A stretch of 64,000 nucleotides of DNA from Verrucomicrobiota bacterium (GTDB taxonomy: Bacteria > Verrucomicrobiota > Kiritimatiellia > JAAZAB01): NCBI GenBank assembly GCA_018898455.1, contig JAHIJO010000014.1, positions 1,560 to 65,559 of the forward strand, given 5' to 3'. The number at the start of each line of letters is the position of its first letter. Positions within the stretch are counted from its first letter, which is position 1. The notes under the pieces were generated by a model, which did not search any database, had not been told where the DNA came from, and was given only the letters and a program-made list of their open reading frames with translations. Below are positions 17,964-34,952 of the stretch, piece by piece. The position numbers and the translations under genes are program-made.

Positions 17964-18003
17964 ATAGGTGATTATCCGGACAGCTTATCCAGGATGTTCG
18001 ATA

Positions 18004-19023: not shown

Positions 19024-20172
19024 ATGAAAAAAGAGCGCAACTATTTACCCGAGCAATATAGCCGGACCGCCGGCTTGCCCATCAACCATAATTATCTTCG
19101 GCAGCAGTTTGCGGATTACGCGAAAATACTGAAAAAAATCGGGCGCCTCGCGCAGGAGGGCGATTACACGCTCGGGAAACAGGTCGATGAATTCGAAGCC
19201 AATATCAGGAAATTGACCGGCAGCCGGCATGCTATAGGCGTAGGGAGCGGGACGGATGCCATCTTTTTGAGCCTGAAAGCCTCCGGCATCGGGAACGGTG
19301 ACGAAGTTATTACCACGCCCTATACCTTCGTGGCAACCATCGGCGCCATTGTGGCGACCGGCGCCAAGCCGGTGTTCGCGGATATAGGCGAAGATTACAA
19401 CCTTGACCCCGCCTTACTCGTTCCTAGGATTTCGGCCCGGACCAAGGCCATCCTGCCGGTGCACTGGTCAGGGCTTCCTTGCCGGATGGATGCGATTCTG
19501 AATATTGCCCGGCAGCATCATTTGTCGGTCATTGAAGACTCCTGCCATGGCATCCGGGCTTATTTCAAAGGAAAAGCGGCAGGAACATTTGGATTGTGCG
19601 GCTGTTTTAGCATGCATCCCTTGAAAAACCTCAATGTCTGGGGGGATGGGGGATATATCGTCACGGATTCGGACGAAATTTATAAACGGTTAATGCTTCT
19701 TCGCAATCACGGCTTGGCGGACCGCAATGAATGCCGGATATTCGGCTATAACTCGCGCTTGGATTCGATCCAGGCGATTGTGGCCAACCATCTTCTGCAA
19801 AAAATCGACGCCATAACCAAAGCGCGTATCGATAATGCGCGTTTATATGATGAAGTTTTGCGCGAGATTAAGCAGATTATTATTCCCCCGCGCCGGCCGG
19901 ATGCCGTTCAGGTGTATCACCTGTATATTGTCAGGGCGGAGAGGCGCGATGAATTGCAGAAATATTTGCTGAAAAACGGCATTGACGCCAAGGTTCATTA
20001 TCCGGTTCCGATGCATTTACAGCCGGCGGCAAAGATTTATGGATATAAGGCTGGAGATTTTCCGGTCTGCGAGCGGACCTGCAAATCCGTCATTTCATTG
20101 CCGGTCCATGAATTTATTACGGAAAAACAGATCAAAACTGTTGCCAAAAAGATAAAAGAATTTTATGCGTAA
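19024..20172 (+). CDS. DegT/DnrJ/EryC1/StrS-family PLP aminotransferase (sugar aminotransferase)
   Basis: 382 aa ORF with a typical DegT core and Lys-containing PLP region (FSMHPLKNLNVWGDGG). Confidence 0.85.
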   Translation: MKKERNYLPEQYSRTAGLPINHNYLRQQFADYAKILKKIGRLAQEGDYTLGKQVDEFEANIRKLTGSRHAIGVGSGTDAIFLSLKASGIGNGDEVITTPYTFVATIGAIVATGAKPVFADIGEDYNLDPALLVPRISARTKAILPVHWSGLPCRMDAILNIARQHHLSVIEDSCHGIRAYFKGKAAGTFGLCGCFSMHPLKNLNVWGDGGYIVTDSDEIYKRLMLLRNHGLADRNECRIFGYNSRLDSIQAIVANHLLQKIDAITKARIDNARLYDEVLREIKQIIIPPRRPDAVQVYHLYIVRAERRDELQKYLLKNGIDAKVHYPVPMHLQPAAKIYGYKAGDFPVCERTCKSVISLPVHEFITEKQIKTVAKKIKEFYA

Positions 20173-21364
20173 AATACAATTCGTCAATTTAGGACTTCAA
20201 TACCGCTCACTGCGCAGTGAAATTCTGGCTGCGTTTGATCGTGTTTCCCGGCAGGGGGCTTATGTGCTGGGAAAAGAGGTGGGACTATTTGAGGAAGAAT
20301 TCGCCGATTATTGTGGAACAAGGCATGCGGTGAGTGTGGCGAACGGTTCGGATGCTTTGTATCTCGCCTTAATCGCGCTTGGAATCGGGGCTGGCGATGA
20401 GGTGATAACTGTTCCGAACTCATTCCTGGCGACGGCTTGGGCGATCGCGCGGACGGGCGCGCGCATTGTATTCGTTGATGTCGGCAATGATATGAATATT
20501 AACCCGGCCTTGATTGAAAGAGCCTGTACGCGGCGGACAAAGGCGATTATGCCGGTGCATTTGACGGGGCGGGTTGCCGATATGGATGCAATTTTAAAGA
20601 TAGCCAAACGTCGGCGGCTTCATGTTGTTGAGGATGCGGCGCAGGCCGTGGGCGCGCGTTATCACGGTCAATACGCGGGATCATTCGGCGTGTGCGCGGG
20701 CTTTAGTCTGCATCCCTTGAAGAACTTGCATGTCCATGGTGATGGCGGTGTAATAACAACCAGTAACGAAAAAATATATTCAACCCTGATCCAACTTCGG
20801 AATCATGGGCTGGTGAGCCGCGATATCTGTAATCTGATCGGAATTAATTCGCGGTTGGATTCCGTCCAGGCCGCCATAGCCAGAATTAAATTGAGACGTC
20901 TGGAAAAATGGAATAGGCGCATGCGATTTCTTGCCGGGATTTACTCCAGCGGTCTGAGCCGTTTTGTCGTCGTGCCCGAAGAAAAACGCTATGAAGAATC
21001 CTGTTATCATCGGTATATGATCAGGCTTGAGAAGCGGGATGATCTCGGTAAATTTCTGGAAAACAACGGCATAGAAACAAAAGTCAATTATCCCGTGCCG
21101 ATTCATCTCCAGCCGGCCGCAAAAAGTTTGGGATACCGGCGCGGCGATTTTCCGGTCGCCGAAAAGCTGGCCGATACCATATTGAGTTTGCCGCTTTATC
21201 CGGAGATGAAGGATCCTGATGTGACATTCGTTATTGAGATGATAAGGCGGTATTTTGAAAGAAGGGGAAGTTGTGAGAAGGGGCCGGCAGGGCGCGCTCG
21301 CCGCCGCGGTTTCAGGTTCCGCCGGAGCGCGACGTCCAAGCGAGGGTGCTATGCCAAGGCATAG
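20165..21364 (+). CDS. DegT/DnrJ/EryC1/StrS-family PLP aminotransferase, second paralog
   Basis: 399 aa ORF paralogous to the preceding gene (FSLHPLKNLHVHGDGG). Its Arg-rich C-terminal tail probably reads through a GC-rich repeat, so the true stop may be earlier. Confidence 0.8.
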   Translation: MRKIQFVNLGLQYRSLRSEILAAFDRVSRQGAYVLGKEVGLFEEEFADYCGTRHAVSVANGSDALYLALIALGIGAGDEVITVPNSFLATAWAIARTGARIVFVDVGNDMNINPALIERACTRRTKAIMPVHLTGRVADMDAILKIAKRRRLHVVEDAAQAVGARYHGQYAGSFGVCAGFSLHPLKNLHVHGDGGVITTSNEKIYSTLIQLRNHGLVSRDICNLIGINSRLDSVQAAIARIKLRRLEKWNRRMRFLAGIYSSGLSRFVVVPEEKRYEESCYHRYMIRLEKRDDLGKFLENNGIETKVNYPVPIHLQPAAKSLGYRRGDFPVAEKLADTILSLPLYPEMKDPDVTFVIEMIRRYFERRGSCEKGPAGRARRRGFRFRRSATSKRGCYAKA

Positions 21365-21479: not shown

Positions 21480-23036
21480 TTGACTGTCCGTGCCATGGGA
21501 ACCGCAAATAAAATAATTCATTTCAACGAGGCGCACGCTTTCTTTGCGAAATTGCGCAAGGCGGGCAAGAAGATCGTACAATGTCACGGCACGTTTGATT
21601 TGCTGCATCCCGGCCATGTTATTCATTTTGAGGAAGCGAAGAGGCTGGGCGATGTTTTGGTGGTGACCGTCACTGGCGCCAGGCATGTCAATAAGGGGCC
21701 CGGTCGGCCGTGTTTTAACGATGAATTGCGGCTTAAATCAATCGCCGCTTTGGAATGCGTCGATTTTGTGGTTTTGATTCCATATCCGGCGGCCGTAGAA
21801 GCCATTGAGTGTGTCGGGCCTCATTTTTATTGCAAAGGCAAGGAATATGAACGTGCCGATACGGATGTTACCGGCAATTTTTACGATGACATTCAAACGG
21901 TTGAAAGCCTGGGAGGTAAAGTCTGCTATGTCGGTTCGGTCGTGTTCAGCTCAAGCAAACTGCTGAATTTGCATTTTGATACGCATAATCCAAAGATAAA
22001 AAGCTTCTGCCGGCAGGTTGCGAAAGAAATTCCTTTTCAACAATGTCGTACCATTGTGGAAGATTTTAAAAAACTTAGGGTTCTCATTATCGGTGATATC
22101 ATCTTTGACCGCTACTCAACAATGTCCGTTCAGGGCTTGACTTCAAAAAACAGGATCATTTCCGGACGGTTTGTTGGCGAAGATCTTCAGGCCGGAGGGG
22201 CTTTGGCAGTTTTGCGTCATATCCGCGAGTTCGCGCCAAAAGTCAAATTAATTAGCTTGGTAGGAACAGAACCATGGGTCGAAAGTTCTTTGCGGAATTT
22301 TATTAAGCCGGAAGAAGATAACATCCTGCGCGTAAATGATTTTACGACCATCGTCAAACAGCGTTTTGTTGAATCTCAGCAAGAAGGAAAAGAATTATCC
22401 AAATTATTTGCGGTTAATTACATTGACGCCTTACATCCCAAGGCACCGCTGCTCAAGAGGGTTCTTGAAAGGATTCGTAAGACAATTAAAACGTATGACT
22501 TGATTGTCGTGATGGATTTCGGGCATGGGTTGATGGGCGATGCGATCAGGGAAATGGTCCAGGCCAAAGCGCCTTTCCTGGCACTCAATTGCCAGACGAA
22601 CAGTAATAATCACGGATTCAATATCATCAATCGCCAATACCAGAGAGCCGACTCATTTTCACTTGATCAGACGGAAATCCGGCTGGCTTTTGGCAAGCGT
22701 GAAATCAACGGACTGCCAGAACTGGCCGATCTTCGTAAACAATTAAAAGCACAATACGGATGGTTGACCCGCGGCGATATTGAGACCATCGGAATTAAAC
22801 ATGACGGCACAACATGCGCCTGTCCTCCGCTCGAGGTCAATATCGTAGATACGGTCGGAGCCGGCGATGCGTTCAGCGCCGTCGCCTCCCTAGCCGCCGT
22901 GAGCGGGCTCCCGATCGAATTGGCGACTTTCATGGGGCAACTGGCGGGTGCCCATGCAGTCCGCATCGTCGGAAATTCTGAGGCAATAAAGAAGTCTGTA
23001 TTTCTAAAGGGCTGTGAAGCATTGTTGAATTACTGA
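21480..23036 (+). CDS. hldE: bifunctional heptose-1-P adenylyltransferase / heptose-7-P kinase (HldE-like) with reversed domain order
   Basis: The N-terminal ~160 aa form a cytidylyltransferase-like domain with CHGTFDLLHPGH (the HxGH-type nucleotidyltransferase motif of HldE domain II). The C-terminal ~330 aa form a PfkB ribokinase-like domain with DTVGAGDAF (HldE domain I). Confidence 0.75.
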   Translation: MTVRAMGTANKIIHFNEAHAFFAKLRKAGKKIVQCHGTFDLLHPGHVIHFEEAKRLGDVLVVTVTGARHVNKGPGRPCFNDELRLKSIAALECVDFVVLIPYPAAVEAIECVGPHFYCKGKEYERADTDVTGNFYDDIQTVESLGGKVCYVGSVVFSSSKLLNLHFDTHNPKIKSFCRQVAKEIPFQQCRTIVEDFKKLRVLIIGDIIFDRYSTMSVQGLTSKNRIISGRFVGEDLQAGGALAVLRHIREFAPKVKLISLVGTEPWVESSLRNFIKPEEDNILRVNDFTTIVKQRFVESQQEGKELSKLFAVNYIDALHPKAPLLKRVLERIRKTIKTYDLIVVMDFGHGLMGDAIREMVQAKAPFLALNCQTNSNNHGFNIINRQYQRADSFSLDQTEIRLAFGKREINGLPELADLRKQLKAQYGWLTRGDIETIGIKHDGTTCACPPLEVNIVDTVGAGDAFSAVASLAAVSGLPIELATFMGQLAGAHAVRIVGNSEAIKKSVFLKGCEALLNY

Positions 23037-24374: not shown

Positions 24375-25325
24375 ATGCGCATTTTATTAACAGGCGGCTG
24401 CGGATATGTGGGTTCGGTGTTAACCCCGAAACTGCTTGAGCGGGGACACGAGGTAACCGTCTACGACATCATGTGGTTTGGAAATTTCCTGAAAGAGCAT
24501 CCGAATCTAACAATCATCCAGGGGGATATCAGAGACATTGACGCCGTTCCGATGGATGGCATGGATACCGTCATTCATCTCGCCAATATTGCCAACGATC
24601 CGTGCAGTGAGTTAAACCCGAAATTATCATGGGAAGTCAATGTCCTGGCCATGATGCAGCTGGTGGAGCGGGCGATAGCCTGCGGAGTCGGCCAGTTTGT
24701 TTACGCCAGTTCCGGCAGTGTTTACGGCGTTAAGGATGAACCCGAAGTGACGGAGAATCTTTCCCTGTTGCCCATTTCCGATTACAACAAAACAAAAATG
24801 ATCAGCGAGCGGGTTCTCCTGAGTTACCAGGATAAAATCATCGTTCAAATCGTTCGTCCGGCAACTATTTGCGGTTATTCCCCGAGAATGCGTCTTGACC
24901 TTTCCGTAAACATGTTGACCATGCAGGCTTTAACAAAGGGGAAGATCACCGTATTTGGCGGAAATCAAACCCGTCCTAATATTCACATTCAGGATATTAC
25001 GAATGTATTTATCCACTTTCTCGGATTGGGCGACAAAGTAACAGGCATTTACAACGCCGGCTTTGAAAACATATCCATTTTAGACATCGCCCGAATGGCC
25101 GCCGAATTTATTCCCGCCAAGATCATTGTTACGGAATCAAACGATCCGCGCTCCTACCGCCTCAATGCGGATAAATTACTGAACACCGGTTTCAGGCCAA
25201 CATTCAAAGTTGTTGATGCCATTAAGGAAATAATTGCCGCCTTCCGGACGGGCAAACTCAAAGATGAAGACGGATGCTATAATATCAGGACCATGAGGCG
25301 AATGGAAAGCAATGGGAAAATGTAA
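24375..25325 (+). CDS. NAD-dependent NDP-sugar epimerase/dehydratase (extended SDR)
   Basis: 316 aa ORF with LLTGGCGYVGS Rossmann motif and a YxxxK motif. Confidence 0.8.
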   Translation: MRILLTGGCGYVGSVLTPKLLERGHEVTVYDIMWFGNFLKEHPNLTIIQGDIRDIDAVPMDGMDTVIHLANIANDPCSELNPKLSWEVNVLAMMQLVERAIACGVGQFVYASSGSVYGVKDEPEVTENLSLLPISDYNKTKMISERVLLSYQDKIIVQIVRPATICGYSPRMRLDLSVNMLTMQALTKGKITVFGGNQTRPNIHIQDITNVFIHFLGLGDKVTGIYNAGFENISILDIARMAAEFIPAKIIVTESNDPRSYRLNADKLLNTGFRPTFKVVDAIKEIIAAFRTGKLKDEDGCYNIRTMRRMESNGKM

Positions 25326-25332
25326 TAACGTT

Positions 25333-26301
25333 ATGAATCCTGATTTGAAAAAAAAACTATTATTTAACATGCTCCGTATCCGGCTTGTGGAGGAGGCGAT
25401 TGCCGAACGCTATAGTGAGAAAAAGATGCGATGCCCTGTTCACCTTTGTATAGGACAGGAAGCCATCGCCATCGGCGTTTGCGCGCATCTATCAACAAAG
25501 GATTATGTAATGAGTGCCCATCGTTCTCATGGTCATTATCTGGCAAAAGGCGGTGATCTGAAGGCCATGCTGGCTGAAATTTATGGAAAAGTTACAGGAT
25601 GTTCCTTGGGCAGAGGCGGTTCGATGCACCTCGTTGATTTAGATGCTGGATTCCTGGGAGCTACGCCAATTGTCGGTGGTACCATCCCGATAGCTGTGGG
25701 TGCGGCATTTGGGTCCCAGATGAAAGGGGAAAGCAGAATATCCGTAGTTTTCATGGGGGAAGCCGCGACCGAAGAAGGGGTATTCAGCGAAAGTATCAAT
25801 TTTGCCTCATTGAAAAAACTTCCAGTCATTTTCGTTTGTGAAAATAATTTGTATTCTGTCTATTCCCCGTTATCCGTTCGACAATCGGCAGAAAGGAATA
25901 ATAGCGCCATTGTCAAAGGGTATGGAATTTATACCGATAAGGGTGACGGCAATGACGTTATTGAAATTTATCAAAAGATGGAAAATGCTGTTGGACATGC
26001 GCGTCAGGGCCTTGGACCGGCTTATCTGGAGTTTGATACATATCGCTGGCGGGAACACTGCGGGCCAAACTATGACAATAACATCGGCTATCGGTCGGAA
26101 GAGGAGTATTTGGATTGGCGGAAACGATGTCCCATTACATGCTTTGAAGAAATATTGAAACAGGAAAAGGTTCTTTCCGACCTGGAAGTTAAAGAAACGG
26201 TAAAGAAAATTACCGCTGAAATTGAGGGAGCTTTTAACTTCGCCGTATCCAGCCCTTTCCCTCCTGAAAAAGACCTTTACCATCATCTTTACGCCTATTG
26301 A
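25333..26301 (+). CDS. TPP-dependent dehydrogenase E1 component alpha subunit (pyruvate/acetoin dehydrogenase E1alpha-like)
   Basis: ORF 25312..26301 with the TPP-binding GDG...N fold signature and E1alpha length. Confidence 0.8.
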   Translation: MNPDLKKKLLFNMLRIRLVEEAIAERYSEKKMRCPVHLCIGQEAIAIGVCAHLSTKDYVMSAHRSHGHYLAKGGDLKAMLAEIYGKVTGCSLGRGGSMHLVDLDAGFLGATPIVGGTIPIAVGAAFGSQMKGESRISVVFMGEAATEEGVFSESINFASLKKLPVIFVCENNLYSVYSPLSVRQSAERNNSAIVKGYGIYTDKGDGNDVIEIYQKMENAVGHARQGLGPAYLEFDTYRWREHCGPNYDNNIGYRSEEEYLDWRKRCPITCFEEILKQEKVLSDLEVKETVKKITAEIEGAFNFAVSSPFPPEKDLYHHLYAY

Positions 26302-26316
26302 GTCAGATGGGTTTTT

Positions 26317-27378
26317 ATGGAACGCGAAATAAGCTACGTAAAAGCTATTTTGGAAGCAACGGCCCAGAGCATGGCCGAAGACGCATCGGTTTATATCATG
26401 GGGTTGGGCGTTCCTGACCCGAAAGGCATTTTCGGGACAACCCTTGGTCTCAAAGAGCAATTTGGAAACCAGAGAATAATGGACATGCCGGTATCAGAAA
26501 GTGCCATGACCGGCGTGGCTATCGGTTCGGCCATGGTCGGGATGCGGCCGATATTGACTCATCAGCGACTTGATTTCATACTCGTGTCCCTGGATCAAAT
26601 TATCAATAATGCGGCCAAGTGGCACTATATGTTCGGCGGAAAAATGAGCGTGCCAATCGTGATTCGCCTGATTGTTGGGCGGGGCTGGGGGCAGGGTCCT
26701 CAACATTCGCAAAGCCTGCAATCTTTATTTGCCCATATCCCGGGATTAAAAGTTGTCATGCCTTTCACCCCTTATGACGCCAAGGGGTTGCTCGTTTCCG
26801 CCATTAGGGATAATAATCCGGTTATCTATATTGAACATCGCTGGCTTCACAATATTACAGGTATTGTTCCGGAAAAGATCTACACCGTACCCTTGGGGAA
26901 GGCCAGGGTCGTAAAAGAAGGAAAAGATATCACCATTGCGGCGTCATCATACATGGTTTTAGAATCCATGAAAGCGGCGGATTATTTAGGTAAAGATGGC
27001 ATCTTCGCCGAAGTGCTTGATCTGCGCACGTTACAACCTCTTGACCGGGAAAGCATCATTAATTCCGTAGAAAAGACCGGCCGCCTCCTCGTTGTTGATG
27101 GCGCCTGCCATACCGCCGGCTTTGCTGCGGAAGTTATGGCCACAGCAACAGAAAAAGCCTTCGGTCATCTAAAGGTATCGCCCCAAAGAATAACTTACCC
27201 GGACCTGCCGACGCCGACCAGCCCGGCCCTGGCGAATGTGTATTATCCTCGTGTTATCAACATCATCAATGCCGTCCGGTCTATGTTCAGACTTCCGGGA
27301 AGAACGGAAGATGAATTAGGCATAAAGCATGATCAGCCTTTGGACGTGCCGGACAAGTCGTTCACGGGACCTTTCTGA
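26317..27378 (+). CDS. TPP-dependent dehydrogenase E1 component beta subunit (transketolase-like pyrimidine-binding + C-terminal domain)
   Basis: 353 aa ORF with E1beta architecture, immediately downstream of the E1alpha gene. Confidence 0.8.
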   Translation: MEREISYVKAILEATAQSMAEDASVYIMGLGVPDPKGIFGTTLGLKEQFGNQRIMDMPVSESAMTGVAIGSAMVGMRPILTHQRLDFILVSLDQIINNAAKWHYMFGGKMSVPIVIRLIVGRGWGQGPQHSQSLQSLFAHIPGLKVVMPFTPYDAKGLLVSAIRDNNPVIYIEHRWLHNITGIVPEKIYTVPLGKARVVKEGKDITIAASSYMVLESMKAADYLGKDGIFAEVLDLRTLQPLDRESIINSVEKTGRLLVVDGACHTAGFAAEVMATATEKAFGHLKVSPQRITYPDLPTPTSPALANVYYPRVINIINAVRSMFRLPGRTEDELGIKHDQPLDVPDKSFTGPF

Positions 27379-27502: not shown

Positions 27503-28597
27503 TTGATTCTGGATGGAACAAAAATTCAATGGCACACAGACCGGGTAAAAGCATGGATGAACGGAGAAAGAATTGCTCCGATTACAGTTGATATGGCATT
27601 GACAAGGGCTTGCAATTATAAATGCGAGTTCTATTATGGAAAGCTTCAAGAGAATCCGAGAATGAAAATAACCAAAGATACAATTTACCGTTTTCTTGAC
27701 GATGCAGCTGAGATTGGAGTAAAGGGGGTTAGTTTTGTAAGTGACGGAGAAAGTTCATGTGCCCCATTTTTTGTTGAAGCAATTATCAGAGGTAGCAAAA
27801 ATGGTTTGTCAATGGCTATGGCTTCGAATGGGCACCTGGTTACCAAAGAGAAACTGGAGCAAATACTTCTACATTTAACATATTTTCGCTTCAACATATC
27901 AGCGGGAGAATCGCGAAGATACGCTGATATTATGGGGGTTCCAGAATCATATATTTTCACAGTTTGCCAAAACATTCAAGATGCGATGGAGATTAAAAAC
28001 AAATACAATCTTAACGTAACTATTGGCATGCAAATGGTTCTTATGCCGCGGTATGGCGATCAAATTCTTCCGCTTGCAAAGCTAGGCTCAAAACTAAAGC
28101 CCGATTATCTTGTTATAAAACACACTTCTGACGATGAAAAGGGAAGCCTTGGCGTGAATTATAAAGGATATCGCGAATTATACAAAGACCTCAAAAAAGC
28201 TGAATCATTAAGCACGGATAAATATATTGTAAAAGTAAAATGGTCGAAAATTCAAGATGAAGGAAAAAGAAGATATAGCCAATGCTACGGCCCTCCTTTT
28301 TTAATACAACTATCAGGCGGTGGATTGGTTGCCCCCTGCGGAATGTTATTTGGCGAAGATTATCGTAAATATTGGATTGGCAATATAGTTGACCAGCCTT
28401 TCAAGGCAATTTGGAATTCCGAACGTTATTGGTCAGTAATGCATGAGATAGCTTCAAATAGATTTAATGCAAGAACAATGTGCGGATGTTTATGCGTTCA
28501 ACACAAATCAAATGAATTCCTTTGGGATTTGAAACAAGGGAAGGCAACCATGGGGCATCCCGTCGGGTCAGCGCCGATGCATATCAACTTTGTATAG
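27503..28597 (+). CDS. SPASM/twitch-type radical SAM-like protein with noncanonical CX3CX2Y motif
   Basis: ITVDMALTRACNYKCEFYYG aligns to the rSAM CNLxCxYC cluster, but the third Cys is Tyr. A GNIVDQPFKAIWNSERY block is typical of SPASM-domain enzymes. No in-frame ATG exists before M at 27557 (otherwise TTG 27503). Confidence 0.6.
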   Translation: MILDGTKIQWHTDRVKAWMNGERIAPITVDMALTRACNYKCEFYYGKLQENPRMKITKDTIYRFLDDAAEIGVKGVSFVSDGESSCAPFFVEAIIRGSKNGLSMAMASNGHLVTKEKLEQILLHLTYFRFNISAGESRRYADIMGVPESYIFTVCQNIQDAMEIKNKYNLNVTIGMQMVLMPRYGDQILPLAKLGSKLKPDYLVIKHTSDDEKGSLGVNYKGYRELYKDLKKAESLSTDKYIVKVKWSKIQDEGKRRYSQCYGPPFLIQLSGGGLVAPCGMLFGEDYRKYWIGNIVDQPFKAIWNSERYWSVMHEIASNRFNARTMCGCLCVQHKSNEFLWDLKQGKATMGHPVGSAPMHINFV

Positions 28598-28687: not shown

Positions 28688-29968
28688 ATGCCAGTCAAGA
28701 AGTTGATTAATTCACCGATCTTCTATTTTATACGGGGATATTTTACCGGAGATAATGTGGCTTACTATCTGCCGGCAAAATATCTCTGGACGGTTTGCAA
28801 TGTAACCAAAACCGGATTTCACCAACCGGTCTATGATTTTAAGCTGGATGGCCCGATCACGTTGGATTTCATGTTTTATCCGGAACAGCCACAACACAAG
28901 TATTTTAAAAAACCGGACTGGATCAACGAGTTCATTGTAGCTGGTGACACGGTCGCAGCACAACAGATCGCTGGACACTATGACTATTGCATCAATAATT
29001 ATCGCAATCGTGGCGCACAACCGGCCGAATTGAACTGGGGATATCCACCCGGCATGCAAGCGATCGAGCTATATGCTTACCCCTATTCCTATAAAGCTAT
29101 TTACGAACAGAGCATTTATCTTGACGACCTGTTTCTGACTGATGAATACCAGGAATATTTACAGTCGGTAAACCAGGCAGTCAATCCGGATCGGCGCCCG
29201 GTAATCGCCTTGCATCACCGCGGCGGCGATCGTTGGAAACGCCATCTGCCGAACAGCGCCGCTCTTTCCGAAGTATTATTGCGCAATTTACTGGACGCCT
29301 ATCCGGAACATCAGATCGTGCTGCTGGGTGAATCCTGGCGCTATCATCGTCACCCAAGGATCAAATACCTTGAAGATTCCATCAATCTCCGCAATCTGAA
29401 AAAGCGATTCGAGGATTATTCGGCTTGTTTGCAATTTATCCTGGCTGCTTATTTTTGCCGCGATGCCGATATGGTATTTTGCGGCATATCCGGTTTTAGC
29501 GCTTTCATCGAAAGCATTCGTCCGTTGGATAAAACACCGCCGATCCCGATTTTCTGGGGACCAAAGACTTTTACCGGCACCTGTACCTTCATGAAAAAGA
29601 TGAACTGGAATTGCTGCGCCGAATTGGCCGATTACCGCAAAGCTCACCCCGAAGACGCAGCGTTTCTGCACGATACCCCGAATTTTCTTTATTACAATCG
29701 GAATGAAGTCCTGCTAAAGCCCTATTGTCTGGATTATCCTAATAACTTGGACAAAATATTTACCCTCCTGAAACAAATATCGGAAGTGAAGGAATATAAA
29801 ATTGAGATTCGCACTCTACAGCAGGGGTTTAGTGAACGGTTGATTACTTATTTCTGGCATTTCAAGTCGTATGTAAGGCTATTAAAGCGTTTATGTCAGA
29901 TTATATTTTTAGAAAAAGCGGGGTGGGGACGGATTATGCTAATCGTAAAAGAGTTAATGACGAAGTGA
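28688..29968 (+). CDS. putative GT-B glycosyltransferase, GT9 (heptosyltransferase)-like C-terminal half
   Basis: The segment IVLLGESW...NLRNLKKRFEDYSACLQFILAAYFCRDADMVFCGISGFSAFIE...IPIFWGPK matches the GT9 C-terminal pattern (vvl.G...nl.G.t.l.e.aal...a.l.ig.DSG..H.a.a....lfGp). Confidence 0.4.
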   Translation: MPVKKLINSPIFYFIRGYFTGDNVAYYLPAKYLWTVCNVTKTGFHQPVYDFKLDGPITLDFMFYPEQPQHKYFKKPDWINEFIVAGDTVAAQQIAGHYDYCINNYRNRGAQPAELNWGYPPGMQAIELYAYPYSYKAIYEQSIYLDDLFLTDEYQEYLQSVNQAVNPDRRPVIALHHRGGDRWKRHLPNSAALSEVLLRNLLDAYPEHQIVLLGESWRYHRHPRIKYLEDSINLRNLKKRFEDYSACLQFILAAYFCRDADMVFCGISGFSAFIESIRPLDKTPPIPIFWGPKTFTGTCTFMKKMNWNCCAELADYRKAHPEDAAFLHDTPNFLYYNRNEVLLKPYCLDYPNNLDKIFTLLKQISEVKEYKIEIRTLQQGFSERLITYFWHFKSYVRLLKRLCQIIFLEKAGWGRIMLIVKELMTK

Positions 29969-30058
29969 ATATAATATTTACTCTCGCTATGCGGACGCAA
30001 GCTGAGCGACGGCAATTCCGTTTCCACTATTTTCCAATGAGGACGAAAGCGACGCTTA

Positions 30059-31795
30059 ATGAATTTTCTTTTTGTTAACCCAAAAGTGGCCGCACGTGGG
30101 CAGTATTATGATTTCCCTCTTGGCCTGGCGTATGTTTCCGCTTACATGAAACATTCGGGGTTCGCCACATACTGCCTTAACCTATGTCACGATGACAGCC
30201 CCATTGAGAGGCAGTTGCTTAATGCGATCACAAGTAACAACATAAATGTTGTGTGCACGGGCGGCATGTCGGTTAACTTCAATGCCATCAAAGAGGTCGT
30301 TCAGGCGGCCAGAAAGGTAAGTCCGGATATCAAGATTGTTGTCGGCGGAGCGGTTGTAACGGCGGATCCCGCTTTGGCAGCCGAGCTTTTGCAGTTTGAT
30401 TATGGGGTTGTCGGTGAAGGCGAAATCACTATGGCGGAATTGGCCGGTGTGCTAACCGGCAACGGAGATGCTTCACAAGTTGCAGGTCTGATCTATCGCG
30501 ATGGGCAGGGGAATTCCCGCGTGCCCGTGATAGAACGTCTGGATCGTTACATTACCACGGGGCAACGTCAGCCGATCATGGACTTGGATTCACTCCCCTT
30601 CCCGGATTGCGCGGGGCTTGGCTATGTCGAATATTTAAAGACTTTCGCGCCCAATTGCTCGAACAATATGTTTACCATCAATGACGCTCCGCGTGCTGCG
30701 TTTGTGATTGCCTCGCGATCATGCCCGTTCGACTGCACCTTCTGTTACCATCCGCTCGGAAGGAAATATCGGCAGCGGAGTCTCGACAGTGTCATGGCGG
30801 AAATCGATCACATGAAGCGGAAGTATGACATCAATGTTCTGGTACTGATGGATGAGTTGTTTTCCACTTCCATTGAACGGCTTCTCCTGTTCTGTAAAAG
30901 AGTAAAGGATTATCACCTCCAGTGGATGGTGCAACTCAGGGTTTCAGACGTGACCGAAGAAGTCCTTCGCGCCATGAAAGAATCAGGAGTGTATGCGGTC
31001 AGTTACGGCGTGGAGAGCATGAGCGACGACATTCTTAAGAGTATGAATAAGAAAACAACTTCAACCCAAATTGAAAAAGCCTTGAGTATGACACGTTCAC
31101 TAGGCATTGGCGTATTCGCGAATCTGATCTTTGGCGACCCGGAAGAAACGGATTTAACGGTGAAAAAGTCACTAGACTGGTGGTTTGCCCATATTGAGTA
31201 TGGCGTCACGCTGTATATGATCAGGGTTGTTCCAGATTCGCCCATCTATAGATATGCGCTGGAAAGCGGCATTATCAAGGATAAGGCAAAGTTTATGAAG
31301 GATGGTTTTCCGATCATAAACATAAGCAAACTCTCGCCCTCCGCCTTTACTCGTCTCTGTCATCTCATAGACTGGTATACCTTTGCGAAAATTCCAGGTC
31401 AACCGGGGCAGGTCATGCAATCATCCGTGATAGGCTGGGACACCTTTAACCGGCGTATATATTCAGTTGATATCCTGTGTCCTCAATGTAATGCCCGGAC
31501 TACTTATACTAATCTAGCGCAGATGGACTACTTTGGTTTTAGGGGTTACCTTCAAGTGTTTTGCCGGAATTGTCACCACCGCGTGAATGTGTCGCCCAAG
31601 CAAGTGTTTGGTGAAAACTACAAGTTGAGAAATAATTCAATCTTCAGGTTCATCGCGGTGAATTCCATAGATATGCTTTTCCGGTCACGTATTATTTTTA
31701 CTATTTTGAACATTATTCGCCTCCAGTTCTTTGATATCCGTCGCTTGCACAGGCTTTTCCGGAAACTGGCGGTGTCCCGTCCTGCAGAAACATGA
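30059..31795 (+). CDS. B12-binding domain radical SAM protein (class B rSAM) #1
   Basis: It has an N-terminal cobalamin-binding-like domain, then CPFDCTFC (a CX3CX2C motif). Confidence 0.8.
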   Translation: MNFLFVNPKVAARGQYYDFPLGLAYVSAYMKHSGFATYCLNLCHDDSPIERQLLNAITSNNINVVCTGGMSVNFNAIKEVVQAARKVSPDIKIVVGGAVVTADPALAAELLQFDYGVVGEGEITMAELAGVLTGNGDASQVAGLIYRDGQGNSRVPVIERLDRYITTGQRQPIMDLDSLPFPDCAGLGYVEYLKTFAPNCSNNMFTINDAPRAAFVIASRSCPFDCTFCYHPLGRKYRQRSLDSVMAEIDHMKRKYDINVLVLMDELFSTSIERLLLFCKRVKDYHLQWMVQLRVSDVTEEVLRAMKESGVYAVSYGVESMSDDILKSMNKKTTSTQIEKALSMTRSLGIGVFANLIFGDPEETDLTVKKSLDWWFAHIEYGVTLYMIRVVPDSPIYRYALESGIIKDKAKFMKDGFPIINISKLSPSAFTRLCHLIDWYTFAKIPGQPGQVMQSSVIGWDTFNRRIYSVDILCPQCNARTTYTNLAQMDYFGFRGYLQVFCRNCHHRVNVSPKQVFGENYKLRNNSIFRFIAVNSIDMLFRSRIIFTILNIIRLQFFDIRRLHRLFRKLAVSRPAET

Positions 31796-32008
31796 CAGGG
31801 ACGGCCAAAGAGATCGGGCGTCGTGAAATAACAGCACAATCACGACCGATAATCCATAGATATTGATTGCATCATACCGTGCCAGCGCCTGTTCCATATC
31901 GCCGCGTTACGGCTTTGATGCTTTGCATTCCCACATCTTAACCATTTTTACCTTTCTGCTTGCCTCCAAGCCCCTGCCTTGCCACAATTATGGTCTCGAA
32001 CGCATCTT

Positions 32009-33547
32009 ATGAATACGCAGGACAAGGCATTACGGATTCTCTTTGTTAACCCGCCACTTTCAATAGTGCGCGGGCATTTGTGCACCATGCTTAAGTTCCC
32101 CCTCGGCTTTCTCTATCTCGCCACACCCTTGGAGCGGGATGGGTTCGACGTCAAGATCCTCGATGCCCCGCTATATTACCGGACGACCACCACGGTGGAT
32201 GACAATACGGTCCGCATCGGAATGACGTTTGAACAAATCGCCGAAGAGATCCGGAGCTATGCGCCCCAGATCGTCGGCGTCAGTTGCGCCTATACCATGA
32301 GCGAAGCCGATTCGTTTGCCGTGATTGATTATATCAAGCAAAGGTTCCCATCGGTCCTGCTGGTGGTGGGTGGAGCGCATACTTCGGCGAATCCCGGCTA
32401 TGTTTTGAGGAATCGCAATATTGACTTGGCGGTGATCGGCGAGGGCGAATTGACCATGCTGGAAATTGCGCGGCAATTCCGGTCCGGCAAGTCGCTCCAG
32501 GATATCCCGGGCACAGCCCTTGTCATTGAGGGACAGGTGCGGATCAACGAACGCCGCGAATACATGGCCGACCTGGATGAGTATGGCGCGAGCTGGCACC
32601 TGCTCGATATGGCGCAATATTTCGCGCATCCCAACAATGCCGACGCCACCCTGCGGCGCAATGCGGTGGACTTGGTCACCAGCCGCGGATGTCCGGGAAA
32701 GTGTGTCTTTTGCTCCATTCATACGGTCTGGGGACGCAAGTGGCGGGCCCGTTCGCCCAAAAACGTGGTGGACGAAATGGAGTTGCTTTGCCGCCAATAC
32801 GGCGCGCGGCAATTCCGCATCCAGGACGACAATCTGACCCTGGATAAGCGGCGGATTATAGAAATATGCGATGAAATCGTCCGCCGCAAGCTTGATATCC
32901 GCTGGGACACGCCGAACGGCATCGCATTGTGGACGTTGAACGAGGATGTTCTGAAGAAAATGAAGCAGGCCGGCTGTTACCGCGTGACATTCGGTATCGA
33001 GTCCGCATGTTCCCGTACCCAGCAATACATCGGCAAGATTGTCAATCTCCAGCGGATCAGGGATATTGTAAATTACTGTCACCGCATTGGCTTATGGATC
33101 TGCGGCACTTTTATCATCGGGTTTCCCGATGAGACCCGTGATGAAATTCGGGAAACTGAGCAGTTTATCGTAAAATCACGGTTTAATTTTCCCTTCATCT
33201 ATGTAGCGCAACCGATGCAGGGGACACGGCTGTACGAGGATTTCAAGGCCCACAACCTTCTGCCTGACGAATTCCGTCCCATGAGTTCCGTTGATCAGAC
33301 GCGCTATGACACCCTGCACTTCAATCAGTCTGAATTGAATGACATGGTGCGCAATATTTACATGAGGTTTTACAGGCATAAAGCTCTGTCCTATTTGAAT
33401 CCCCTGCGGTGTTACCGCGAATTCCTTTCGAAAATAAGATCCCGGGAAGACCTGAATTATGTACTGCGCATGGCCGTGGCAATCTGGTATCCTCTCCGGT
33501 TGAAAAAGTTTGCCAAAAAACATGCTGTTGACCAGGTTGGGGAATGA
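32009..33547 (+). CDS. B12-binding domain radical SAM protein (class B rSAM) #2
   Basis: ORF 31979..33547 with an ILFVNPP N-terminal B12-like domain and a CPGKCVFC motif. Confidence 0.8.
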   Translation: MNTQDKALRILFVNPPLSIVRGHLCTMLKFPLGFLYLATPLERDGFDVKILDAPLYYRTTTTVDDNTVRIGMTFEQIAEEIRSYAPQIVGVSCAYTMSEADSFAVIDYIKQRFPSVLLVVGGAHTSANPGYVLRNRNIDLAVIGEGELTMLEIARQFRSGKSLQDIPGTALVIEGQVRINERREYMADLDEYGASWHLLDMAQYFAHPNNADATLRRNAVDLVTSRGCPGKCVFCSIHTVWGRKWRARSPKNVVDEMELLCRQYGARQFRIQDDNLTLDKRRIIEICDEIVRRKLDIRWDTPNGIALWTLNEDVLKKMKQAGCYRVTFGIESACSRTQQYIGKIVNLQRIRDIVNYCHRIGLWICGTFIIGFPDETRDEIRETEQFIVKSRFNFPFIYVAQPMQGTRLYEDFKAHNLLPDEFRPMSSVDQTRYDTLHFNQSELNDMVRNIYMRFYRHKALSYLNPLRCYREFLSKIRSREDLNYVLRMAVAIWYPLRLKKFAKKHAVDQVGE

Positions 33548-33742
33548 ACAACCTCCACAACCCTGTCAAATTCCCTGGGTCTTCCGCAGTTACATGACGT
33601 GAAATGCGGAGAGAGTTGCAATAGGATTTACAGGATTGCCCTGTCTGCGGCAAAAGGGGCCACTTGCCTGGCGACGTGGTAAAATGGAATACTCGGATAG
33701 GATTTTAGACAGGATTAACAGGATTTACATGATTGTCTGATC

Positions 33743-34126
33743 ATGGAATACAAGGAATTAACGGAAAAGATAATTGGTTGCGCCATGAAAGTGCATCAGG
33801 CGCTCGGTCCGGGGTTCCTGGAATCAGTCTATCAGAAAGCGTTAGCTCATGAACTCTGTAAGGCGGGTCTTGCCTTCGAATGTGAAAAGGCCATCCAAGT
33901 TCTCTATGACAGCGTGATCGTTGGCGACTTTTCTGCCGACATGCTGGTTGAAGGCACTGTCATGGTGGAAAATAAATCAGTCCAATCCCTCGTCGCGGCC
34001 CACGAAGTGCAATTAGTGAACTACCTGACCGCCACCGGCATTGAAGTGGGTCTCTTGCTGAACTTTGGCGCAGCCAGTTTGGAAATCAAACGCAAGACCC
34101 GTACCTACCGTCCAAAATCGCCTTAA
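33743..34126 (+). CDS. GxxExxY protein (PD-(D/E)XK-like)
   Basis: 127 aa ORF with GPGFLESVY motif. Confidence 0.75.
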   Translation: MEYKELTEKIIGCAMKVHQALGPGFLESVYQKALAHELCKAGLAFECEKAIQVLYDSVIVGDFSADMLVEGTVMVENKSVQSLVAAHEVQLVNYLTATGIEVGLLLNFGAASLEIKRKTRTYRPKSP

Positions 34127-34198
34127 AATCCTGTAAATCTTGTTAATCCTGTCAAAATTCATGAAATAGTATGCCGGAAAACAAGAAGGGATGGATAT

Positions 34199-34879: not shown

Positions 34880-34952
34880 AAACGGAGATGAATCTGCTTC
34901 CAATCCTGCCCGTGACAGCGTAGGATAACAATAAACAAAAGGATAAAGACTC

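What the first reader, a model, noticed from the sequence alone, without database searches (positions are those of the whole stretch)
25333..27378. Pyruvate-dehydrogenase-type E1 alpha/beta pair embedded among sugar-modifying genes with no E2/E3
The two ORFs have canonical E1alpha (TPP-binding) and E1beta (transketolase-like) architectures. They are flanked by an SDR epimerase upstream and a SPASM rSAM downstream, and no lipoyl-E2 or E3 genes are nearby. From established knowledge, stand-alone E1alpha/beta pairs in deoxysugar clusters (AviB1/AviB2 type) transfer a hydroxyethyl or acetyl two-carbon unit to a 4-keto sugar to create branched-chain sugars. This predicts a branched heptose or aminosugar.
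Basis: partly seen in the sequence, partly recalled or inferred. Interest (0 to 1): 0.6.

Follow-up and report, generated by a model that had tools for sequence, protein, structure and literature searches.

The report
Stand-alone E1 pair in heptose-sugar cassette
Two genes that look like the first enzyme of pyruvate dehydrogenase are instead a fixed part of a widespread, uncharacterised gene cassette that modifies a nucleotide-activated seven-carbon sugar, where they most likely attach a two-carbon branch.

Summary
ORFs 25312/25333-26301 (E1alpha) and 26317-27378 (E1beta) are intact TPP-type E1 subunits. No E2 or E3 is found in the 64 kb window.

The pair is not housekeeping. Its E1beta belongs to a tight clade (at least 52% identity) carried by more than 20 phyla, including environmental Chlamydiae, cyanobacteria and archaea. 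In 79 related loci the pair sits with the same partners:
- a reversed-domain HldE-like kinase/nucleotidyltransferase
- a GmhA-like isomerase
- an RmlB-like SDR
- an SDR whose closest solved relative is 6VO6, which I recall to be Cj1427, the GDP-heptose C4-dehydrogenase of C. jejuni

L-2-hydroxyglutarate oxidase, which would recycle the by-product of Cj1427-type chemistry, lies in several of these loci. True acetoin E1beta genes, with E2 next door, fall outside the clade.

The clade has its own marks: an invariant C-terminal tail (LDVPDxSFxGPF) and a G-[E/D]-[G/A]-ATEEG TPP motif.

The best reading is TPP-dependent transfer of a two-carbon unit from pyruvate to an NDP-4-keto-heptose. The chemistry is inferred, not shown. 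Relatedness to AviB1/B2 could not be tested, and AviB-type enzymes are themselves unproven. Literature places similar genes in the Coxiella burnetii O-antigen region; I could not check this by sequence.

The parts
25312..26301 (+). E1alpha-like TPP-binding subunit (329 aa; alternative start 25333 gives 322 aa)
   Evidence: Pfam E1_dh E=8.9e-65. NCBIfam PDH_E1_alph_y scores 299 bits, below its 394 cutoff. Best PDB hit is human PDHA1 at 173 bits. The TPP motif reads G-E-A-A-T-E-E-G...C-E-N-N; in 80 family members the second position is E (49) or D (28). His of YRWxEHCGP is conserved.
26317..27378 (+). E1beta-like subunit (353 aa) with a family-specific ~30-residue C-terminal extension ending LDVPDKSFTGPF
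   Evidence: Transket_pyr plus Transketolase_C. NF006667 scores 329.5 against a cutoff of 321; the equivalog NF008854 scores 304, below 454. Best PDB hit is Geobacillus PDH E1beta at 262 bits, with the alignment ending at query residue 322. D343, P345, F349, G351, P352 and F353 are invariant in 55 sequences. The tail has pLDDT below 50 in a monomer model.
24375..25325 (+). SDR2: extended SDR directly upstream of E1alpha; candidate NDP-heptose C4-dehydrogenase (Cj1427-like)
   Evidence: Best PDB hit is 6VO6/6VO8 at E=1.6e-41, 146 bits, about 40% identity with a shared SPRMRLDLxVN block; the next hit scores 86 bits. Orthologs are present in 65 of 79 loci and are the immediate upstream neighbour of E1alpha in 33.
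21480..23036 (+). Reversed-domain HldE-like bifunctional enzyme (N-terminal cytidylyl/adenylyltransferase, C-terminal PfkB kinase)
   Evidence: CTP_transf_like at residues 36-100 and PfkB at 398-499. HldE domains match in reversed order. Present in 59 of 79 loci.
17262..17963 (+). SIS-domain, GmhA-like sugar-phosphate isomerase (called from 17397 on identical contigs)
   Evidence: SIS_2 E=1.4e-12. gmhA models match at E=1e-14 to 1e-16 but below their cutoffs. The family is found in 53 of 81 loci.
17968..19017 (+). DH46: RmlB-like SDR with S-T-P-E-V-Y-G in place of RmlB's S-T-D-E-V-Y-G
   Evidence: TIGR01181 scores 191 bits against a cutoff of 365. Best PDB hits are dTDP-glucose 4,6-dehydratases at 139 bits. 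In 63 orthologs Pro is present in 59 and Glu in all 63. Present in 61 of 79 loci and the immediate downstream neighbour of E1beta in 38.
19024..21364 (+). Two overlapping DegT/DnrJ/EryC1 aminotransferase genes (19024-20172 and 20165-21364)
   Evidence: Pfam E=1e-103 and 6e-107. Both keep the Schiff-base lysine (S-x-H-P-L-K). The same pair follows E1beta in Azospirillum oryzae and in about 10 loci.
27503..28597 (+). Radical-SAM/SPASM protein downstream of E1beta
   Evidence: Radical_SAM plus SPASM. It is 62% identical to the Azospirillum cluster's rSAM. The cluster motif reads CNYKCEFY, with the third Cys replaced by Tyr; orthologs read CxxxCxxC.
28688..38232 (.). Variable tailoring block: unknown 426-aa protein, three B12-binding radical-SAM enzymes (30059-31795 +, 31979-33547 +, 36754-38232 -), TylF-like (34199-34879) and FkbM-like (35419-36195) methyltransferases
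   Evidence: Pfam hits. Gene calls on identical contigs.
39798..46758 (-). Second sugar module: GHMP kinase, three SDRs, a cupin and unknown proteins; resembles the E1-containing cluster of S. magneticus pDMC1
   Evidence: Pfam hits. The GHMP kinase is 55% and the SDR at 45823-46758 is 57% identical to the pDMC1 proteins.
10658..12634 (.). Left edge of the glycan island: NTP_transferase (10658-11530, -) and a GT2 glycosyltransferase (11591-12634, +)
   Evidence: Pfam hits. GC falls from 0.55-0.60 in the flanks to 0.43-0.50 inside the island.

Best explanation
The E1alpha/E1beta pair is a thiamine-diphosphate enzyme dedicated to nucleotide-sugar biosynthesis. It is not part of a 2-oxoacid dehydrogenase complex.

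Proposed pathway:
1. A GmhA-like isomerase and a reversed-domain HldE-like kinase/nucleotidyltransferase convert sedoheptulose 7-phosphate into an NDP-heptose.
2. The adjacent Cj1427-like SDR, and/or the RmlB-like SDR, oxidises C4 to give an NDP-4-keto-heptose or its 6-deoxy form.
3. The E1 heterotetramer decarboxylates pyruvate to hydroxyethylidene-TPP and adds that carbanion to the sugar ketone. This gives a C-acetyl branch on a tertiary alcohol, as YerE does in yersiniose synthesis and as proposed for AviB1/B2.
4. In this window, two aminotransferases, a radical-SAM enzyme, three B12-radical-SAM enzymes and methyltransferases then decorate the product.

Shown: the domain make-up, the absence of E2/E3, the conserved cassette and the distinct clade.
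Inferred: the substrate, the position of attack, the donor and the product.
For: 1. Catalytic equipment is intact. The TPP/Mg motif is present with an acidic residue (E or D), E1alpha keeps its His, and E1beta keeps PxxE and GPQHSQS.
2. No E2/E3 domains occur in the window. No E2 or E3 motifs occur in the six-frame ORFs of 85 related loci.
3. E1beta homologs at 57-84% identity in 80 genome loci from more than 20 phyla all lie in sugar clusters. Of 79 loci with both subunits, 65 have SDR2, 61 have DH46 and 59 have the reversed HldE. SIS is in 53 of 81.
4. SDR2 is far closer to 6VO6 than to any other solved SDR (146 vs 86 bits). Cj1427 makes GDP-4-keto-heptose and reduces alpha-ketoglutarate to L-2-hydroxyglutarate (PMC10680097).
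5. L-2-hydroxyglutarate oxidase, scoring above the NCBIfam cutoff, sits in cassette loci and in S. magneticus pDMC1.
6. In an NJ tree the 83 family E1beta sequences form one clade. It excludes true AcoB (E2 adjacent) and Geobacillus PDH E1beta.
7. Aminotransferases occur in only about 11 of 79 loci, so the E1 role does not depend on an amino group.
8. TPP-dependent acetyl transfer to NDP-4-keto sugars is the accepted logic for C4 two-carbon branches (PMC4753412; PMC10338323).
Against: - No biochemical data exist for this clade, nor for any E1-type sugar-branching pair.
- The cassette holds two enzymes that could each make a 4-keto sugar (SDR2 and DH46). Their order relative to E1 is unexplained.
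- DH46 lacks RmlB's catalytic Asp (Pro in 59 of 63), so its activity is uncertain.
- No GmhB-type phosphatase was seen in the cassette, so the activated substrate may differ from a plain NDP-heptose.
- No branched heptose is known from any carrier organism.
- The identification of 6VO6 as Cj1427 rests on my memory. The PDB table names it only 'putative sugar-nucleotide epimerase/dehydratase'.
- 30 of 81 related loci carry a second TPP enzyme (YerE-like or split transketolase). Which enzyme makes which bond is therefore open.
Confidence: 0.55

Rival explanations
1. The pair forms a C-C bond somewhere other than C4 of the NDP-sugar. Options are DXS-like condensation of pyruvate with the aldehyde of a heptose phosphate before activation, or chain extension at an oxidised exocyclic carbon (C6/C7), giving a linear higher-carbon sugar rather than a branched one.
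For: - E1 is as tightly linked to SIS and the HldE-like gene as to the SDRs. HldE is the immediate upstream neighbour in 21 loci.
- E1beta shows weak similarity to DXS and transketolase.
- No phosphatase is present in the cassette.
- Many loci add a second TPP enzyme, suggesting stepwise carbon-chain building.
Against: - SDR2, whose best solved relative I recall to be a C4 dehydrogenase acting on an NDP-heptose, is the commonest direct neighbour of E1alpha (33 loci).
- The HldE-type kinase needs a free anomeric carbon, which a 1-deoxy-2-ulose would not offer in the usual way (inference).
Confidence: 0.2
2. The pair decarboxylates a 2-oxo acid to supply an acyl or aldehyde unit for N- or O-acylation of the sugar. 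This could be through acetyl-TPP, or with a carrier encoded elsewhere.
For: - In this window and in Azospirillum the pair is followed by two aminotransferases.
- A stand-alone E1 pair also occurs beside NRPS/PKS and ACP genes on Streptomyces griseofuscus pSGRIFU1, with a similar F-x-G-P-Y C-terminus.
Against: - Aminotransferases are absent from most cassette loci (about 11 of 79), while E1 is constant.
- No ACP, lipoyl or acyltransferase gene is conserved with the pair.
- An oxidant would be needed to reach acetyl-TPP.
Confidence: 0.08
3. The pair works in the cleavage direction, like acetoin dehydrogenase E1. It would cut a C-C bond next to a sugar ketone to shorten or rearrange the heptose.
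For: E1beta is about as similar to acetoin E1beta (47%) as to PDH E1beta (46%). Ketone-forming SDRs are conserved alongside it.
Against: Cleavage next to C4 of a pyranose would open the ring, and no enzyme to process such fragments is conserved. Without E2, the TPP-bound fragment has no evident acceptor.
Confidence: 0.07
4. It is the E1 of a housekeeping pyruvate, acetoin or branched-chain 2-oxoacid dehydrogenase whose E2/E3 genes lie elsewhere in the genome.
For: Public annotations name family members 'pyruvate dehydrogenase E1 beta', 'acetoin:DCPIP oxidoreductase beta' or 'alpha-ketoacid dehydrogenase subunit beta'. E1beta just passes NF006667 (329.5 vs 321).
Against: - The pair lies mid-island with 25 kb or more on each side lacking E2/E3.
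- All 79 related loci with both subunits place the pair in the sugar cassette.
- Genuine AcoAB operons have E2 directly downstream and fall outside the clade.
- E1alpha is far below the PDH equivalog cutoff.
- The conserved 30-residue C-terminal extension is absent from PDH/AcoB.
Confidence: 0.02

Closest known systems
AviB1/AviB2 (avilamycin), Pau11/Pau12 (paulomycin), EvdU5/EvdS3 (everninomicin): PDH-E1-like pairs proposed to add the C4 acetyl branch to NDP-4-keto sugars
   Same: A stand-alone E1alpha/E1beta pair without E2/E3. It lies in a nucleotide-sugar cluster beside an enzyme that makes a 4-keto sugar. The predicted chemistry is pyruvate-derived two-carbon transfer.
   Different: - Those pairs are in actinomycete antibiotic clusters and act on hexose- or pentose-derived sugars. 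This clade is in cell-surface-type glycan islands of more than 20 phyla and is wired to heptose activation.
- Sequence relatedness was not tested.
- Their function is itself only proposed (PMC4753412, PMC10338323).
YerE (Yersinia pseudotuberculosis), the TPP-dependent flavoenzyme that attaches the two-carbon branch of yersiniose to CDP-3,6-dideoxy-4-keto-glucose
   Same: The same proposed reaction type: hydroxyethyl-TPP from pyruvate added to a C4 ketone of an NDP-sugar in a Gram-negative surface glycan.
   Different: YerE is a single-chain acetolactate-synthase-type enzyme (TPP_enzyme_N/M/C), not an E1 heterotetramer. YerE-like proteins of about 600 aa occur in addition to the E1 pair in 17 of 81 related loci.
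Cj1427 / MlghA pathway of Campylobacter jejuni capsule heptoses
   Same: The SDR next to E1alpha is closest to 6VO6, which I recall to be the Cj1427 structure. GmhA-like and heptose-activating genes are present. L-2-hydroxyglutarate oxidase in related loci fits the alpha-ketoglutarate ping-pong mechanism.
   Different: C. jejuni follows C4 oxidation with epimerases and a C4 reductase, and has no TPP enzyme. It activates heptose as GDP-alpha-heptose through a GHMP kinase, not a reversed HldE.
Heterotetrameric E1 of pyruvate / acetoin / branched-chain 2-oxoacid dehydrogenase complexes
   Same: The same fold and catalytic residues: 46-47% (beta) identity to Geobacillus PDH and proteobacterial AcoB, and a 173-bit match of the alpha subunit to human PDHA1.
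   Different: There is no E2/E3 partner. The pair forms a separate clade. It has a conserved C-terminal extension on beta, an altered TPP-motif neighbourhood (ATEEG instead of AANQG) and EHCGP instead of GHS after the YR motif.
Coxiella burnetii O-antigen region cbu0664-cbu0704 (literature only)
   Same: The papers describe, in one region: a phosphoheptose isomerase (CBU0674), two SDRs (CBU0676/0677), a reversed-domain HldE (CBU0678, essential for phase I LPS) and 'pyruvate dehydrogenases' CBU0686/0692/0693 (PMC5843353, PMC5423948, PMC13552124).
   Different: No Coxiella sequence could be retrieved, so orthology is unverified. The E1 genes there were read as fatty-acid/acetyl-CoA metabolism, and the role of CBU0678 is still called unclear (PMC13252051).

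Membership tests
2-oxoacid dehydrogenase complex E1 (PDH/acetoin/BCKDH, alpha2beta2 type) | E1_dh domain with a TPP/Mg-binding motif in alpha; Transket_pyr plus Transketolase_C in beta | tested here: met
   The motif is G-E-A...E-N-N, and the position is E or D across the family.
2-oxoacid dehydrogenase complex E1 (PDH/acetoin/BCKDH, alpha2beta2 type) | Works with a lipoyl-bearing E2 and an E3, usually encoded in the same operon | tested here: not met
   No such domains in the 64 kb window. No E2 or E3 motifs in 85 loci. Control AcoAB operons have E2 directly downstream. The rest of the genome could not be examined.
2-oxoacid dehydrogenase complex E1 (PDH/acetoin/BCKDH, alpha2beta2 type) | Scores above the curated equivalog cutoffs for PDH E1 alpha and beta | tested here: not met
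   Alpha scores 299 against 394. Beta equivalog NF008854 scores 304 against 454. Only the broad subfamily model NF006667 is passed, at 329.5 against 321.
2-oxoacid dehydrogenase complex E1 (PDH/acetoin/BCKDH, alpha2beta2 type) | Groups phylogenetically with E1beta of known complexes | tested here: not met
   In an NJ tree the 83 cassette sequences form a clade that excludes AcoB and Geobacillus PDH E1beta. Identity is at least 52% within the clade and 38-50% outside it. The tree was distance-based only, with no bootstrap.
AviB1/AviB2-type sugar-branching E1 pair | Stand-alone E1alpha/beta in a nucleotide-sugar cluster beside a 4-keto-sugar-forming enzyme | tested here: met
AviB1/AviB2-type sugar-branching E1 pair | Sequence or phylogenetic relatedness to AviB1/B2, Pau11/12 or EvdU5/S3 | not testable with these tools
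   No sequence of these proteins could be obtained. The plasmid, PDB and homolog searches did not return them.
AviB1/AviB2-type sugar-branching E1 pair | Product carries a C-acetyl or 1-hydroxyethyl branch derived from pyruvate | not testable with these tools
   This needs enzymology or glycan structure determination. It is also not demonstrated for the reference enzymes.
YerE-type TPP flavoenzyme | Single chain with TPP_enzyme_N/M/C (acetolactate-synthase fold) | tested here: not met
   The window pair has the E1_dh and transketolase-type domains instead. YerE-like proteins are separate genes in related loci.
Cj1427-type NDP-heptose C4-dehydrogenase (for the neighbouring SDR, 24375-25325) | Closest sequence relative is Cj1427, with a Tyr-x3-Lys SDR core | tested here: inconclusive
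   6VO6 scores 146 bits at about 40% identity, against 86 bits for the next hit. Y137 and K141 are invariant. That 6VO6 is Cj1427 is from memory and was not confirmed in the held papers. A single-sequence AF2 model was unusable, with pLDDT 33.6.
Cj1427-type NDP-heptose C4-dehydrogenase (for the neighbouring SDR, 24375-25325) | Uses alpha-ketoglutarate as oxidant, producing L-2-hydroxyglutarate | tested here: inconclusive
   Indirect evidence only. L-2-hydroxyglutarate oxidase (NF008726, 311-541 bits against a cutoff of 299) is encoded in at least 6 cassette loci and in pDMC1. None is present in this window.

The most novel reading that the evidence does not exclude
This E1 clade is an E2-independent carboligase that uses an NDP-heptose ketone as acceptor. 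Its cassette makes a so far undescribed branched (or chain-extended) nine-carbon sugar displayed on the surface of organisms from Chlamydiae and cyanobacteria to DPANN archaea. In about a third of carriers a second TPP enzyme extends it further. The invariant C-terminal tail of E1beta (LDVPDxSFxGPF) replaces E2 docking and gates the sugar-nucleotide site. The same cassette in Coxiella burnetii (CBU0674-0678 plus CBU0692/0693) would supply an unrecognised LPS sugar needed for phase I O-antigen.
Probability: 0.3. Interest if true: 0.8.

Novelty: new variant of a known kind. Interest (0 to 1): 0.6.

Why it matters
- It would give the first tractable, widely distributed system for testing whether PDH-type E1 pairs really build C-branched sugars. 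That idea has been repeated for more than 20 years for avilamycin, paulomycin and everninomicin without enzymology.
- It predicts an unknown higher-carbon heptose derivative on the surfaces of many uncultured lineages and of cultured Azospirillum and Solidesulfovibrio.
- It flags a systematic annotation error. The top 240 hits of two searches (each capped at 8000 candidates) carry, where named, labels such as pyruvate or acetoin dehydrogenase. These labels feed false steps into metabolic reconstructions. One Coxiella paper read such genes as boosting acetyl-CoA supply.
- If the Coxiella genes are orthologous, it offers a concrete hypothesis for why CBU0678 is essential for virulent phase I LPS.

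Tried and rejected
1. Housekeeping PDH/acetoin E1: rejected on context, clade and cutoffs.
2. Loss of the TPP-motif Asp as a sign of inactivity: rejected. The position is Glu or Asp across the family, always acidic apart from 3 of 80 with Arg.
3. Sequence confirmation of the Coxiella link: failed.
4. Direct comparison with AviB1/B2: no sequences were reachable.
5. Confirmation that PDB 6VO6 is Cj1427: two papers were not held and a full-text search was uninformative.
6. AF2 model of the SDR from a single sequence: pLDDT 33.6, unusable, so no fold search was run.
7. AF2 model of E1beta (pLDDT 83.7): it shows only that the conserved tail and the GWGQG loop are disordered in a monomer. It cannot place the tail.
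8. Literature searches for an E1 pair in heptose or O-antigen clusters found no description of this cassette.
9. N-acylation role: disfavoured because aminotransferases are absent from most cassette loci.
10. PDB search for the radical-SAM protein: no hit.
Full report
**Observation.**
The two ORFs are real and intact. E1alpha is 25312..26301 (329 aa). It matches Pfam E1_dh at E=8.9e-65.

E1beta is 26317..27378 (353 aa) and carries Transket_pyr and Transketolase_C. Upstream lies an extended SDR (24375..25325), and downstream a radical-SAM/SPASM gene (27503..28597).

I ran Pfam on the main ORFs of 150 aa or more across the 64 kb. None has a lipoyl, 2-oxoacid_dh catalytic or dihydrolipoamide-dehydrogenase domain. 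A six-frame motif scan found no E3 redox motif. It found a single DHRxxDG match that falls inside the Ppx/GppA gene, which I take to be chance.

**The island.**
The pair sits in a low-GC island (0.43-0.50 against 0.55-0.60 in the flanks) running from roughly 10.6 to 46.8 kb. The flanks are housekeeping genes: RtcB, PPK1, Ppx, RF-2, YicC, Gmk, CoaB/C and an ABC-F protein.

The plus-strand run contains, in order:
- a GmhA-like SIS protein
- an RmlB-like SDR ('DH46')
- two DegT aminotransferases
- an HldE-like bifunctional enzyme with its domains in reversed order
- a small MNT/HEPN toxin-antitoxin insert
- SDR2, E1alpha and E1beta
- the rSAM/SPASM protein and an unknown 426-aa protein
- two B12-radical-SAM enzymes, then TylF-like and FkbM-like methyltransferases

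A third B12-rSAM lies on the minus strand. It is followed by a second sugar module of GHMP kinase, SDRs and a cupin.

**The pair belongs to a large dedicated family.**
The 120 listed homologs of E1beta in the 5.8-billion-protein collection are 65-99% identical, and nearly all are 352-354 aa. Where they carry a name, it is pyruvate, acetoin or 'alpha-ketoacid' dehydrogenase beta.

A scan of one genome per species found 545 relatives. The best 80 (57-84% identity) come from:
- Verrucomicrobiota, Desulfobacterota, Nitrospirota, Nitrospinota and Chloroflexota
- Omnitrophota, Planctomycetota, Clostridia and Cyanobacteria (Microcoleus, Lusitaniella)
- many environmental Chlamydiae
- Elusimicrobia, Calditrichota, Fibrobacterota and Myxococcota
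- Alpha- and Betaproteobacteria
- Archaea (Methanosarcinales, Woesearchaeota, Naiadarchaeum)

I compared the window's proteins against six-frame ORFs of all loci. Of 79 loci with both E1 genes, 65 have an SDR2 ortholog, 61 DH46 and 59 the reversed HldE. SIS is in 53 of 81. Many of the misses are contig ends.

SDR2 is the immediate upstream neighbour of E1alpha in 33 loci. DH46 is the immediate downstream neighbour of E1beta in 38. Precomputed Pfam calls on three long contigs show the same picture. No locus has E2 or E3 motifs.

**How the family differs from true complexes.**
Within-family E1beta identity is at least 52% (median 62%). Against genuine AcoB from Paracoccus and Burkholderia, both with E2 directly downstream, and against Geobacillus PDH E1beta, identity is 38-50%. 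In an NJ tree the 83 family sequences form one clade that excludes all of these.

E1alpha scores 299 bits on the PDH equivalog model, whose cutoff is 394. E1beta passes only the broad subfamily model, by 8 bits.

Catalytic residues are kept:
- the cofactor-activating Glu in PxxE of E1beta
- the His in GPQHSQS of E1beta
- the His of E1alpha, in a family-specific YRWxEHCGP context
- the NN of the TPP motif

The GDG of the TPP motif reads G-E-A here. Across 80 members the position is E (49) or D (28), so it is acidic in 77 of 80.

E1beta carries a roughly 30-residue C-terminal extension ending LDVPDxSFxGPF, in which D343, P345, F349, G351, P352 and F353 are invariant. The extension is absent from AcoB and PDH. 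It is present in the Azospirillum protein, and echoed (FAGPY) in a stand-alone E1beta next to NRPS/PKS genes on Streptomyces griseofuscus pSGRIFU1.

An AlphaFold model built on 55 sequences is confident for the body (pLDDT 83.7) but leaves the tail below 50. That fits an arm which docks only in the assembly. From memory of the Geobacillus E1-PSBD structure, the free C-terminus of E1beta takes part in binding E2. An extension there would be expected to interfere. This is inference.

**The neighbour that matters most.**
SDR2's best solved relative is 6VO6/6VO8 (E=1.6e-41, 146 bits, about 40% identity, with a shared SPRMRLDLxVN block). The next hit scores 86 bits.

I recall 6VO6 as Cj1427 of Campylobacter jejuni but could not confirm the code from the held papers. 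[quoted passage not shown] It releases the 4-keto sugar and regenerates its tightly bound cofactor by reducing alpha-ketoglutarate to L-2-hydroxyglutarate (PMC10680097; PMC7949155).

L-2-hydroxyglutarate oxidase fits this chemistry. Proteins scoring 311-541 bits against a cutoff of 299 are encoded in cassette loci of a Nitrosomonadaceae MAG, a Nitrospina MAG and a chlamydial MAG, and in the E1-containing cluster of S. magneticus RS-1 plasmid pDMC1. The window itself has none.

DH46 resembles dTDP-glucose 4,6-dehydratases (139 bits). It has S-[ST]-P-E-V-Y-G where RmlB has S-T-D-E-V-Y-G, with Pro in 59 of 63 orthologs. Whether it is a true 4,6-dehydratase is therefore open.

**Mechanism proposed.**
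The proposed route has four steps.
1. Sedoheptulose 7-phosphate is isomerised and then phosphorylated and nucleotidylated to an NDP-heptose.
2. SDR2 and/or DH46 generate a C4 ketone.
3. E1alpha2beta2 decarboxylates pyruvate and adds hydroxyethylidene-TPP to that ketone, giving a 4-C-acetyl tertiary alcohol.
4. Tailoring follows.

This is the chemistry shown for YerE and proposed, but never demonstrated, for AviB1/B2, Pau11/12 and EvdU5/S3 (PMC4753412; PMC10338323).

In this window both DegT proteins keep the Schiff-base lysine. The rSAM/SPASM protein could provide a second ketone, by analogy with BtrN-type dehydrogenases (my knowledge). A diamino, C-methylated, branched heptose is a fair guess. 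All of this paragraph is inference.

**What does not fit neatly.**
- The cassette has two potential 4-keto-forming SDRs, and their order relative to E1 is unexplained.
- No GmhB-type phosphatase is conserved with the cassette.
- 30 of 81 loci carry a second TPP enzyme. It is either a YerE-like protein (17 loci) or a split transketolase (13 loci). The two are never found together, and each sits in a recurring block: short-chain SDR, methyltransferase, TPP enzyme, a 219-aa methyltransferase (55 loci) and a Zn-ADH (36 loci).

These points keep alive a rival reading in which E1 extends the chain or acts on a sugar phosphate. Acylation is disfavoured because aminotransferases occur in only about 11 of 79 loci.

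**Cultured carriers.**
Azospirillum oryzae KACC 14407 carries the cassette on a plasmid. In order, it has an SDR, a GalE-like SDR, the reversed HldE, SIS, SDR2, E1alpha, E1beta, two DegT genes, a hypothetical gene, an rSAM 62% identical to the window's, a NUDIX gene and three GT4 genes.

S. magneticus RS-1 pDMC1 has the pair with a GHMP kinase, a nucleotidyltransferase, SDRs, DegT, SIS and lhgO. Its kinase and one SDR are 55-57% identical to the window's minus-strand module.

**Coxiella lead (literature only).**
Papers on the C. burnetii O-antigen region cbu0664-0704 describe:
- a phosphoheptose isomerase (CBU0674)
- two SDRs (CBU0676/0677)
- CBU0678, with 'an unconventional, reversed domain arrangement' relative to HldE, which is essential for phase I LPS (PMC5843353; PMC13552124)

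[quoted passage not shown] A 2026 preprint still calls the role of CBU0678 unclear (PMC13252051).

The gene content matches this cassette, but I could not obtain any Coxiella sequence to test orthology.

**Verdict.**

- the pair belongs to a distinct, very widespread, unannotated E1 clade
- that clade is locked to a heptose-activation module and a 6VO6-like (by recollection Cj1427-like) SDR
- it has its own sequence signatures

I rate it a new variant of a known (proposed) kind, with interest 0.6.

Noticed in passing
window 27503-28597 (motif at about 27611-27634): The radical-SAM motif reads C-N-Y-K-C-E-F-Y, so the third cluster cysteine is Tyr (TAT). Orthologs in Azospirillum, L070 and L074 have the canonical CxxxCxxC. 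The same Tyr codon is present in four independent metagenome contigs, so it is not a sequencing error.
   Followed up: partly
window 23515-24235; 33743-34126; 35170-35385; 36332-36709; 9769-10638; 15239-15691: Small mobile or toxin-antitoxin-type genes are scattered between the sugar genes: an MNT/HEPN pair between HldE and SDR2, PDDEXK_3 proteins, a PIN_3 protein and a GIY-YIG protein. The MNT/HEPN pair splits the otherwise conserved HldE-SDR2 adjacency.
   Followed up: no
L001-L085 (e.g. L014, L015, L042 for YerE-like; L019, L021, L044, L045, L048 for split transketolase): 30 of 81 related loci carry a second TPP enzyme in a recurring block: short-chain SDR, 226-aa methyltransferase, YerE-like or split transketolase, 219-aa methyltransferase and Zn-ADH. 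The YerE-like and split-transketolase versions look mutually exclusive. The window lacks this block.
   Followed up: partly
L028, L031-L035, L038, L042, L043, L048-L050, L053, L057, L059, L061-L065, L077, L082, L083: Environmental Chlamydiae (Simkaniaceae, Waddliaceae, Parachlamydiales) share a fixed order: SDR2, GalE-like SDR, SIS, reversed HldE, E1alpha, E1beta, DH46. It is often followed by a methyltransferase, an MsbA-like ABC transporter, an RmlD-like SDR and a PhyH-like dioxygenase. This is a conserved glycan locus in reduced genomes.
   Followed up: partly
L087 (Streptomyces griseofuscus pSGRIFU1, 10986-13032): A stand-alone E1alpha/beta pair sits beside a condensation-domain protein, ACPs, ketosynthases and gamma-butyrolactone regulators. 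Its E1beta ends in FAGPY, resembling the cassette family's FxGPF tail. The tail may mark E2-independent E1 enzymes more generally.
   Followed up: no
window 17968-19017 and orthologs: The RmlB-like SDR has Pro where RmlB has its catalytic Asp (S-[ST]-P-E-V-Y-G; Pro in 59 of 63). In 12 of 63 orthologs the Lys of Y-x3-K is Arg.
   Followed up: partly
window 52124-52696 and 53204-53914: The CoaC (Flavoprotein) and CoaB (DFP) domains, usually fused as CoaBC, are separate ORFs about 500 bp apart.
   Followed up: no
window 5809-8085: A 758-aa protein fuses an MFS transporter (residues 23-376) to C-terminal HEAT/PBS-lyase repeats.
   Followed up: no
window 49235-50521: The RF-2-type release factor is read as a single 428-aa ORF from an ATG, with the PCRF domain starting at residue 75. 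I did not check whether the usual prfB programmed frameshift is absent or the N-terminus is over-extended.
   Followed up: no
literature: Coxiella burnetii cbu0664-cbu0704: Published descriptions of this O-antigen region list the same gene types as the cassette: SIS, two SDRs, a reversed HldE essential for phase I LPS, and three 'pyruvate dehydrogenase' genes read as acetyl-CoA metabolism. Orthology was not verified by sequence.
   Followed up: partly
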